Source: a phage
Direction: 5' to 3' (one strand)
Sequence record: EF517103.1
DNA length: 565 nt
In this document: positions 1-565 of the stretch, piece by piece
Numbering within the stretch: the stretch's first letter is position 1
How the letters are laid out: every line of letters starts with the position of its first letter
Translations under genes and position numbers: made by a program
Notes under the pieces: generated by a model
What the model was told of the DNA's origin: nothing
Seen by the model: only the letters and a program-made list of their open reading frames with translations
Database searches by the model: none

Positions 1-441
1 GTTCCGACTGCTGACCGTGTGTTCTACTGTGACCCAGATAGCTACTCTGCGATTCTGGCAGCATTGATGCCGAACGCAGCAAACTACGCTGCTCTGATTG
101 ACCCTGAGAAGGGTTCTATCCGCAACGTTATGGGCTTTGAGGTTGTAGAAGTTCCGCACCTCACCGCTGGTGGTGCTGGTACCGCTCGTGAGGGCACTAC
201 TGGTCAGAAGCACGTCTTTCCTGCCAATAAAGGTGAGGATAATGTCAAGGTTGCTAAGGACAACATTATCGGCTTGTTCATGCACCGCTCTGCGGTAGGT
301 ACTGTTAAGCTGCGTGACTTGGCTCTGGAGCGCGCTCGCCGTGCTAACTTTCAAGCGGACCAGATTATCGCTAAGTACGCAATGGGCCACGGTGGTCTTC
401 GCCCAGAAGCTGCTGGTGCAGTGGTTTTCAAAGTGGAGTAA
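1..441 (+). CDS. 10A: Major capsid protein 10A, C-terminal 146 codons plus stop; 5'-partial, gene continues upstream of the window
   Basis: Seen in sequence: frame 1 is open from base 1 (gtt ccg act gct gac cgt GTG ttc ... = VPTADRVFYCDPDSYS...) to TAA at 439-441. The ORF track begins at the internal GTG at 19 only because it needs a start codon. Established knowledge, recalled not searched: the translation ends ...AKYAMGHGGLRPEAAGAVVFKVE, the C-terminus of T7 gp10A. Codon choice is biased toward ggt, gct, cgt/cgc and ctg, typical of a highly expressed gene. No competing ORF on either strand. Confidence 0.92.
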   Translation, partial: VPTADRVFYCDPDSYSAILAALMPNAANYAALIDPEKGSIRNVMGFEVVEVPHLTAGGAGTAREGTTGQKHVFPANKGEDNVKVAKDNIIGLFMHRSAVGTVKLRDLALERARRANFQADQIIAKYAMGHGGLRPEAAGAVVFKVE

Positions 442-565
442 TGCTGGGGGTGGCCTCAACGGTCGCTGCTAGTCCCGAAGAGGCAAGTGTTACTTCAACA
501 GAAAAAACCTTAACGCCAGCACAGAAGGCCACACGCATCCGCGCTGCTAACAAAGCCCGAAAGGA
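1..565 (+). CDS. 10B: Minor capsid protein 10B, made by programmed -1 ribosomal frameshift near the end of 10A; equivalent to join(1..426,426..565); partial at both ends, with the 10B stop beyond the window
   Basis: Seen in sequence: the -1 frame (codons ttt 426-428, caa 429-431, agt 432-434 ...) has no stop from 375 to 565 and reads FQSGVMLGVASTVAASPEEASVTSTEKTLTPAQKATRIRAANKARK. Established knowledge: T7 gene 10 makes 10B by a -1 shift at this position, and the T7 10B tail reads, from memory, ...FQSGVMLGVASTVAASPEEASVTSTEETLTPAQEAARTRAANKARKEAELAAATAEQ. By that recollection the stop would lie about 34 nt past the window end. Confidence 0.8.
423..429 (+). promoter_or_regulatory. -1 frameshift slippery heptamer G GUU UUC (tRNA-Phe re-pairs UUC to UUU)
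   Basis: Seen in sequence: GGTTTTC at 423-429, read in the 0 frame as gtG GTT TTC, four codons before the 10A stop, and the only point where the open -1 frame can join the capsid frame. Established knowledge: this is the site described for T7 gene 10 frameshifting. It is not a canonical X XXY YYZ heptamer. Confidence 0.7.

What the first reader, a model, noticed from the sequence alone, without database searches (positions are those of the whole stretch)
423..565. Programmed -1 frameshift joining 10A to a C-terminal 10B extension, missed by the ORF track
A U-rich slippery heptamer (GGTTTTC, 423-429) sits 10 nt before the 10A stop. The -1 frame is open for at least 46 further codons to the window edge and encodes a peptide that matches the known 10B tail of T7. 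The TAA stop of 10A (439-441) overlaps an in-frame ATG (441-443) of the -1 frame, which could wrongly be annotated as a separate small gene. In T7 about one in ten capsid subunits is 10B; I recall that proportion and cannot derive it from this sequence.
Basis: partly seen in the sequence, partly recalled or inferred. Interest (0 to 1): 0.55.

Follow-up and report, generated by a model that had tools for sequence, protein, structure and literature searches.

The report
Known T7 capsid gene 10A/10B frameshift
This window is the end of the phage T7 major capsid gene, and the flagged signal is the long-known ribosomal -1 frameshift site that makes the minor capsid protein 10B, so it is real but ordinary.

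Summary
The window is 98% identical to T7 gene 10 (V01146 23564-24128). GGTTTTC lies at 423-429 in the register G GTT TTC. The 10A stop is TAA at 439-441. The -1 frame is open from 375 to the window edge and encodes a tail 41/45 identical to the T7 10B tail. In T7 the tail runs 11 more codons to a stop 34 nt past the window.

Comparison gives independent support. Across 80 uncultivated T7-like contigs, 66 keep G GTT TTC in register and 11 carry a variant (N GTT TTC, G GTT TTA or C CCA AAG). The median -1 extension is 52.5 codons, against 5 for +1. The three contigs with no slip site also lack a 10B-type tail. Third-position variation switches from the zero frame to the -1 frame after the stop. 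The ATG at 441-443 is not conserved, so it is an internal Met, although several GenBank records and a PHROG family treat the tail as a separate gene.

This is the published T7 gene 10 frameshift, so it is already known. One side observation: all 12 differences from T7 are G>A or C>T, which suggests a mutagenised laboratory lineage.

The parts
1..441 (+). 3' part of the major capsid gene 10A (zero frame = window frame 1), including stop TAA at 439-441
   Evidence: 98% identity to T7 gene 10A. Pfam Gp10A-like PF21703, E 1e-52, matched through to the last profile position at fragment residue 142, one residue before the slip-site Phe. PDB 10A chains 2xvr, 3izg and 3j7v-x.
423..429 (+). Slippery heptamer G GTT TTC, the site of the -1 ribosomal frameshift
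   Evidence: Read directly. Single occurrence in the window. In register in 10 of 11 annotated T7-like phage records, T7 included, and in 66 of 80 viral contigs. G_GU-type heptamer named for T7 gene 10 in PMC5009743.
429..565 (+). 10B-specific coding sequence in the -1 frame (window frame 3), cut by the window edge. In T7 it continues to a stop 34 nt beyond the window.
   Evidence: Open frame. 41/45 residues identical to the T7 10B tail. Third-position variability peaks in the -1 frame here, 15 against 6 and 7. phrog_12582 match, E 4e-20.
441..443 (+). ATG in the -1 frame overlapping the 10A stop. It is an internal Met of 10B, not a conserved start codon.
   Evidence: Only 18 of 75 relatives with a long tail have the TAATG/TGATG overlap, and 26 have no ATG anywhere in the -1 ORF. 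The SD-like GGAG at 435-438 is only 2 nt from the ATG (sequence).
375..428 (+). Stretch where the zero frame and the -1 frame are both open; a shift must occur here to reach the tail
   Evidence: The last -1 frame stop is at 372-374. The only T-rich in-register heptamer in this stretch is at 423-429.

Best explanation
The window holds the last 146 codons of the major capsid gene 10A of a T7 variant, together with the programmed -1 ribosomal frameshift site that produces the minor capsid protein 10B.

Most ribosomes read G GTT TTC AAA GTG GAG TAA and terminate, giving 10A. A minority slip back one base with tRNA-Val in the P site (GUU to GGU, partial re-pairing) and tRNA-Phe in the A site (UUC to UUU, full re-pairing). 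They then read CAA AGT GGA GTA ATG ... in the -1 frame. This replaces the last three residues of 10A (KVE) with a 56-residue tail, of which 45 codons lie in the window. In T7 the tail is an unstructured surface extension.

What is shown here: the sequence anatomy, the homology to T7 10A/10B, and the conservation of the site and the tail. What is taken from the literature: the ribosomal mechanism, the roughly 10% efficiency, and the involvement of a distal element in the T-phi terminator. What is inferred: that this particular variant still shifts at a similar rate. That inference rests on 352-484 being identical to T7.
For: Identity with T7:
- 98% identity to T7 gene 10 over all 565 bases.
- V01146 annotates 10B as a join across this site.
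- The heptamer, stop and ATG are at the stated coordinates, and the -1 frame is open from 375 to 565.
- The tail is 41/45 identical to T7 10B, and the T7 tail continues for 11 codons beyond the window.

Conservation:
- 10 of 11 annotated records from 7 genera (T7 included) keep G GTT TTC in register. Their -1 extensions are 41-176 codons and their +1 extensions 3-17 codons.
- Of 80 IMG/VR contigs, 66 keep it. Eleven more carry a variant: A/C GTT TTC in 6, G GTT TTA in 1, and the canonical C CCA AAG in 5 (6+1+5 = 12 counting L053, which one search lists with C CCA AAG; tallies give 5 C CCA AAG loci). The median -1 extension is 52.5 codons, against 5 for +1.
- The three contigs with no slip site (L052, L067, L075; two have the synonymous change GTC TTC) lack a 10B-type tail.
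- Third-position variability moves from the zero frame (68 of 100 variable sites in 1-374) to the -1 frame (15 of 28) after the stop.
- The tail motif LTPxQKAARTRAANKA is conserved across genera in the -1 frame.

Literature:
- G_GU heptamer and a CCCC in the terminator (PMC5009743).
- About 10% frameshifting (PMC1635266).
- 10B is about 5-10% of the virion and its tail is an unstructured surface extension (PMC8923235).
Against: - Nothing in the data contradicts this explanation.
- No protein data exist for this particular variant.
- The published distal stimulator (CCCC in T-phi, window-equivalent about 609-612) lies outside the window, so I cannot check that it is intact.
- No local RNA structure downstream of the site beats shuffled controls (z = +0.39), so a canonical hairpin or pseudoknot stimulator is not visible.
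- The synonymous-site test is only weakly supportive. GTT is used at 94% of slip sites against a median of 54% at other conserved Val codons, but two other Val columns exceed 90%. TTC is near-universal for Phe in this gene.
- The codon-position shift in the tail rests on 28 variable sites (chi-square p about 0.07, my arithmetic).
- The primary papers (Condron et al. 1991) could not be read.
Confidence: 0.95

Rival explanations
1. The tail is a separate small gene. It would be translated from ATG 441-443 by re-initiation coupled to the 10A stop (TAATG), giving a free peptide of about 52 residues rather than a fusion.
For: The ATG overlaps the stop and an SD-like GGAG lies at 435-438. Several database records annotate it this way. 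phrog_12582 is built around such a 52-residue product.
Against: - The GGAG is only 2 nt from the ATG, which is too close for normal initiation (established knowledge of SD spacing).
- Of 75 relatives with a tail of at least 30 codons, only 18 have the overlap and 26 have no ATG anywhere in the -1 ORF, yet the tail is conserved.
- The -1 frame is always open back to the heptamer.
- Loss of the heptamer goes with loss of the tail.
- The literature describes a 10A-10B fusion that is incorporated into capsids.
Confidence: 0.03
2. The frame change is made by RNA polymerase slippage on the T-run rather than by the ribosome. A fraction of mRNAs would carry one T fewer or more.
For: A run of four T (425-428) sits at the shift point. 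None of the tools used here can separate the RNA level from the translation level.
Against: - Four T is short for transcriptional slippage, which typically needs longer homopolymers (established knowledge).
- Some relatives replace the site with C CCA AAG or C GAA AAG. These are tandem-slippage heptamers with runs of only 3-4 bases, and they sit in the correct codon register. Register dependence points to tRNA re-pairing.
- The review PMC5009743 classes T7 gene 10 as ribosomal frameshifting.
Confidence: 0.02

Closest known systems
Bacteriophage T7 gene 10A/10B programmed -1 ribosomal frameshift (Dunn & Studier 1983; Condron, Atkins & Gesteland 1991, as cited in PMC1635266 and PMC5009743)
   Same: Same gene and same heptamer G GTT TTC in the same register. 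The context from 352 to 484 is identical. The stop and the overlapping ATG are the same, and the tail matches at 41/45 residues.
   Different: There are 12 substitutions relative to V01146, all G>A or C>T. Five are in the tail and four of those change an amino acid (E>K, E>K, A>T, T>I). The terminator element implicated in stimulation is outside the window.
10A/10B frameshifts of other Studiervirinae (Yersinia phage Y, Kvp1, phiIBB-PF7A, the K11 group)
   Same: A -1 shift near the end of the capsid gene into a C-terminal extension, usually at G GTT TTC.
   Different: Tails differ. The T7, Kvp1 and EcoDS1 types share the LTPxQKAARTRAANKA motif. The PF7A type carries Big_2 Ig-like domains. The K11 type has a tail of about 92 codons past the stop with no Pfam match. 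Some relatives use C CCA AAG or C GAA AAG instead.
E. coli dnaX -1 frameshift (A AAA AAG, with an upstream SD and a downstream stem-loop)
   Same: A bacterial-ribosome -1 tandem slippage that yields two products from one gene in a set ratio.
   Different: dnaX has a canonical X XXY YYZ heptamer with flanking SD and hairpin stimulators. Here the heptamer is the weaker G_GU type, no significant local structure is found, and the reported stimulator is distal.

Membership tests
T7-type gene 10 programmed -1 ribosomal frameshift | Slippery heptamer in the zero-frame register that allows A-site tRNA-Phe to re-pair (G GUU UUC) | tested here: met
   GGTTTTC at 423-429, with zero-frame codons GTT at 424-426 and TTC at 427-429.
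T7-type gene 10 programmed -1 ribosomal frameshift | The -1 frame is open across the heptamer and extends well past the zero-frame stop | tested here: met
   The -1 frame is open from 375 to 565 (the window edge). T7 continues to window-equivalent 599. The upstream stop density makes this unlikely by chance, about 3e-4.
T7-type gene 10 programmed -1 ribosomal frameshift | The extension is homologous to the 10B tail | tested here: met
   41/45 identical to T7 10B. phrog_12582 E 3.9e-20. The motif is shared across genera.
T7-type gene 10 programmed -1 ribosomal frameshift | Site and extension are conserved together in relatives, and the tail evolves as coding sequence in the -1 frame | tested here: met
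   66 of 80 contigs carry the same heptamer and 11 more carry a variant slip site. The 3 contigs with no slip site have no 10B-type tail. The codon-position signal switches to the -1 frame, on a modest n of 28.
T7-type gene 10 programmed -1 ribosomal frameshift | Stimulatory element (distal CCCC in the T-phi terminator, per PMC5009743) | not testable with these tools
   It would lie at window-equivalent about 609-612, beyond the 565-base window. It is present in all 11 annotated records, T7 included. No significant local structure is found within the window.
T7-type gene 10 programmed -1 ribosomal frameshift | A 10A-10B fusion protein is actually produced (about 10%) and incorporated into capsids | not testable with these tools
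   Known for T7 from the literature. No protein data exist for this variant.
Gp10A-like major capsid protein (Pfam PF21703) | Sequence match above the curated cut-off | tested here: met
   180 bits against a cut-off of 27, profile positions 140-279 of 279. T7 10A PDB chains match at E 7e-90.
Independent small gene (as annotated in GU071091 and MN098329; phrog_12582) | Its own conserved start codon with a properly spaced ribosome-binding site | tested here: not met
   The ATG is present here, but the GGAG is only 2 nt upstream. The ATG overlap occurs in only 18 of 75 relatives, and 26 of 75 have no ATG in the -1 ORF.

The most novel reading that the evidence does not exclude
The frameshift itself is not new. 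The most novel reading the data leave open concerns the lineage. The window may come from a heavily GC>AT-mutated T7 line in which the 10B tail is decaying: two substitutions fall on residues that are invariant in all 39 natural tails carrying the motif. That would be a natural record that 10B is dispensable in the laboratory, even though its conserved basic motif (LTPxQKAARTRAANKA) is under selection in the wild for a function that is still unknown.
Probability: 0.25. Interest if true: 0.2.

Novelty: already known. Interest (0 to 1): 0.07.

Why it matters
As biology, this adds nothing beyond the 1983-1991 description of T7 gene 10.

Its practical value is for annotation. The tail is repeatedly recorded as a separate 'predicted protein', 'hypothetical protein' or 'minor capsid protein' gene, and it has its own PHROG family. 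A scan that flags G GTT TTC (or C CCA AAG) next to a long -1 ORF at the end of T7-like capsid genes would correct many records.

The survey also shows how tightly slip site and tail travel together across Studiervirinae, and that different tails (a basic motif, or Ig-like domains) are attached through the same device.

Tried and rejected
- Rfam scan of the window at E <= 1: only a chance miRNA hit at 144-213 (16.5 bits against a gathering score of 74). No frameshift element family matched.
- Local RNA folding of 430-565: no better than shuffles, z +0.39. Folding T7 from the slip site to T-phi gave z -2.0, dominated by the terminator hairpin, with no pairing between the slip-site region and the terminator in the MFE structure.
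- I considered whether GGGGG at 446-450 could pair with the terminator CCCC and rejected it as unsupported. The G-run is not conserved in close relatives (GGGAG or AGGAG in ESh6, Yersinia phage Y and Pila), and it pairs locally in the MFE structure.
- Synonymous-codon conservation at the slip site: suggestive for Val, uninformative for Phe because of codon bias.
- Search for the exact variant lineage in annotated phages, IMG/VR, GTDB genomes and JGI metagenomes: no exact match.
- The primary papers (PMC209055, PMC328964, PMC5952207) and Springman et al. 2010 (PMC2815918) are not held, so the mechanism is cited from secondary sources.
- Mutation density in the tail (5 in 124 nt) against 10A (7 in 441 nt) is not significantly different (binomial p about 0.10, my arithmetic).
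- Stop-codon readthrough and a +1 shift were rejected. The zero frame hits a second stop at 511 and the +1 frame at 470. +1 extensions are short in relatives, with a median of 5 codons.

Full report
**What is in the window.** The 565 bases read as one long open frame (frame 1) ending in TAA at 439-441. GGTTTTC lies at 423-429, so the zero frame reads G GTT TTC AAA GTG GAG TAA. Frame 3, the -1 frame relative to that gene, has 15 stop codons between positions 12 and 374 and none from 375 to the window edge. At that stop density, an open run of 63 codons has a chance probability of about 3e-4 (my arithmetic). ATG at 441-443 is in the -1 frame and shares a base with the stop. The ORF tool does not list the tail because it omits ORFs that run off the source. 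The only adjustments are that 9 nt separate the heptamer from the stop, and that 45 complete codons follow the shift point inside the window.

**Identity.** Megablast against annotated phage genomes gives full-length matches to Escherichia phage T7 at 97.9-98.1% identity, corresponding to V01146 23564-24128. That record annotates gene 10A (22967..24004) and gene 10B as a two-piece join (22967..24162) across this spot, with the T-phi terminator at 24210 and gene 11 after it. Joining the window's zero frame up to Phe (427-429) to the -1 frame from 429 gives ...AGAVVF-QSGVMLGVASTVAASPEEASVTSTEKTLTPAQKATRIRAANKARK. This is identical to T7 10B at 41 of 45 tail residues. In T7 the tail continues with EAELAAATAEQ and stops 34 nt beyond the window's end, so the extension is not trivial. 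The Pfam model Gp10A-like (PF21703) matches the fragment at 180 bits. The match ends at its last profile position, one residue before the slip-site Phe, and the tail has no Pfam domain. The solved T7 capsid structures contain 10A chains only.

**Independent comparative evidence.**
- I fetched 10 annotated relatives spanning 92% to about 70% DNA identity, from Teseptimavirus, Berlinvirus, Kayfunavirus, Przondovirus, Helsettvirus and Pifdecavirus. Counting T7, 10 of the 11 records carry G GTT TTC in the same codon register, a few codons before the capsid stop. The eleventh, phiIBB-PF7A, has C GAA AAG. The -1 frame runs 41-176 codons past the stop in all 11, and the +1 frame only 3-17 codons.
- In 80 IMG/VR contigs (78 distinct), 66 keep G GTT TTC in register. 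Six have A/C GTT TTC, one has G GTT TTA overlapping T TTA AAG, and the rest of the variant sites are the canonical C CCA AAG. The median -1 extension is 52.5 codons, against 5 for +1.
- Three contigs have no slip site. L067 and L075 carry the synonymous change GTC TTC, and L052 has a different C-terminus. These three are also the ones without a 10B-type tail: their -1 extensions are 8 and 3 codons, or a read into gene 11.
- Among T7 and four natural close relatives, variable sites fall mainly on the third codon position of the zero frame up to the stop (68 of 100 in 1-374; 11 of 15 in 375-441). After the stop they fall mainly on the third position of the -1 frame (15, against 6 and 7). The tail sample is small, with p about 0.07.
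- The tail motif LTPxQKAARTRAANKA recurs in the -1 frame across genera.

**Mechanism.** The review by Atkins et al. (PMC5009743) lists T7 gene 10 as -1 ribosomal frameshifting on a heptamer whose X_XX is G_GU. It also notes an unexplained long-range effect of a CCCC in the transcription terminator, more than 200 nt downstream. PMC1635266 gives a frequency of about 10% and cites the three 1991 primary papers. PMC8923235 describes 10B as about 5-10% of the virion, with an unstructured surface C-terminus that is used for phage display.

From established decoding rules, A-site tRNA-Phe re-pairs perfectly (UUC to UUU), and P-site tRNA-Val re-pairs at two of three positions (GUU to GGU). This step is inference. 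Within the window I find no local RNA structure better than shuffled sequence (z +0.39) and no Rfam family. That is consistent with the unusual distal stimulation reported. The terminator C-run would fall at window-equivalent about 609-612, outside the window. It is present right after the tail stop in all 11 annotated records, T7 included. The region from 352 to 484 is identical to T7, so I infer that the variant still frameshifts. No protein data exist for it.

**Rival explanations.**
- Independent initiation at ATG 441 is how several records annotate the tail. Examples are GU071091 'predicted protein', ON528719, MN098329 'minor capsid protein' with an annotated RBS, and LT961836 'hypothetical protein'. 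PHROGs holds a 52-residue family, phrog_12582, that matches it. However, the GGAG is only 2 nt from the ATG. Only 18 of 75 relatives with a long tail have the stop-start overlap, and 26 have no ATG at all in the -1 ORF. The ATG is therefore an internal Met.
- Transcriptional slippage is unlikely on a run of four T. It also does not explain why the alternative sites in relatives are register-correct tandem-slippage heptamers.
- Readthrough and a +1 shift give short, unconserved extensions.

**Side observation.** All 12 differences from V01146 are G>A (7) or C>T (5) on the plus strand. In natural relatives, GC>AT transitions make up 82 of 231 substitutions, or 35%. Twelve of twelve therefore has a probability of about 4e-6 (my arithmetic). 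This points to a chemically mutagenised or otherwise GC>AT-biased laboratory lineage. Such lines are reported for T7 (Springman et al. 2010, cited in PMC8923235), but that paper and the exact sequence could not be retrieved.

Two tail substitutions (A>T at 531 and T>I at 538) hit residues that are invariant in 39 of 39 natural tails carrying the motif. E>K at 525 matches the natural consensus and two other T7 records. Two TTC>TTT changes (219 and 351) fall on Phe codons that are TTC in all, or nearly all, relatives.

**Verdict.** The feature is the long-known T7 gene 10A/10B programmed -1 frameshift, so it is already known and of low interest. It does carry a useful lesson for annotation.

Noticed in passing
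window 7, 64, 219, 239, 265, 274, 351, 485, 504, 525, 531, 538: All 12 differences from reference T7 are G>A (7) or C>T (5), with no reverse transitions and no transversions. Natural relatives show about 35% GC>AT changes. This suggests a mutagenised or GC>AT-biased laboratory T7 lineage. The exact sequence is absent from every collection searched.
   Followed up: partly
window 531 and 538 (10B tail): A>T and T>I fall on residues invariant in 39/39 natural tails with the TPxQKAARTRA motif. E>K at 525 instead matches the natural consensus (K in 38/39) and two other T7 records. This is compatible with relaxed selection on 10B in the laboratory.
   Followed up: partly
L004 841-999; L006 938-1096; L008 938-1096; L014 1020-1175: GenBank records annotate the 10B tail as a stand-alone gene ('predicted protein', 'major capsid protein', 'minor capsid protein' with an RBS, 'hypothetical protein'). 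PHROGs has a 52-residue family, phrog_12582 'head protein', that matches the stand-alone tail and appears to be built from such calls.
   Followed up: yes
L013 981-1277 (Klebsiella phage K11) and many of L016-L095: K11-type phages keep G GTT TTC, but the -1 frame encodes a different tail of about 92 codons past the stop (...SVNTFSAR...KLVVTN). It has no Pfam match and is not annotated in NC_011043.
   Followed up: partly
L011 1023-1565 (Pseudomonas phage phiIBB-PF7A): This phage uses C GAA AAG instead of G GTT TTC, and its 176-codon -1 tail carries Big_2 Ig-like domains (Pfam E 3e-23). The same frameshift device attaches a different decoration module.
   Followed up: partly
L036, L038, L040, L041, L053 (about 7-16 nt before the capsid stop): A canonical X XXY YYZ heptamer, C CCA AAG, replaces G GTT TTC. 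It is followed by -1 tails of 83-92 codons past the stop, of the type that aligns with the Big_2 tail of PF7A.
   Followed up: no
L067 1902-2588; L075 879-938; L052 1875-1973: These are natural losses. A synonymous GTC TTC (or a different C-terminus in L052) removes the slip site, and these contigs also lack a 10B-type tail. In L067 the -1 frame happens to run 216 codons into the next gene.
   Followed up: partly
L001 1809-1812 and the equivalent positions in L006-L015: The 5' arm of the late terminator (AACCCCTTGGG) starts 7-14 nt after the tail stop in all 11 annotated phage records. It lies 151-303 nt from the slip site in the ten that carry G GTT TTC. The reported role of its CCCC in stimulating the shift remains unexplained.
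   Followed up: no
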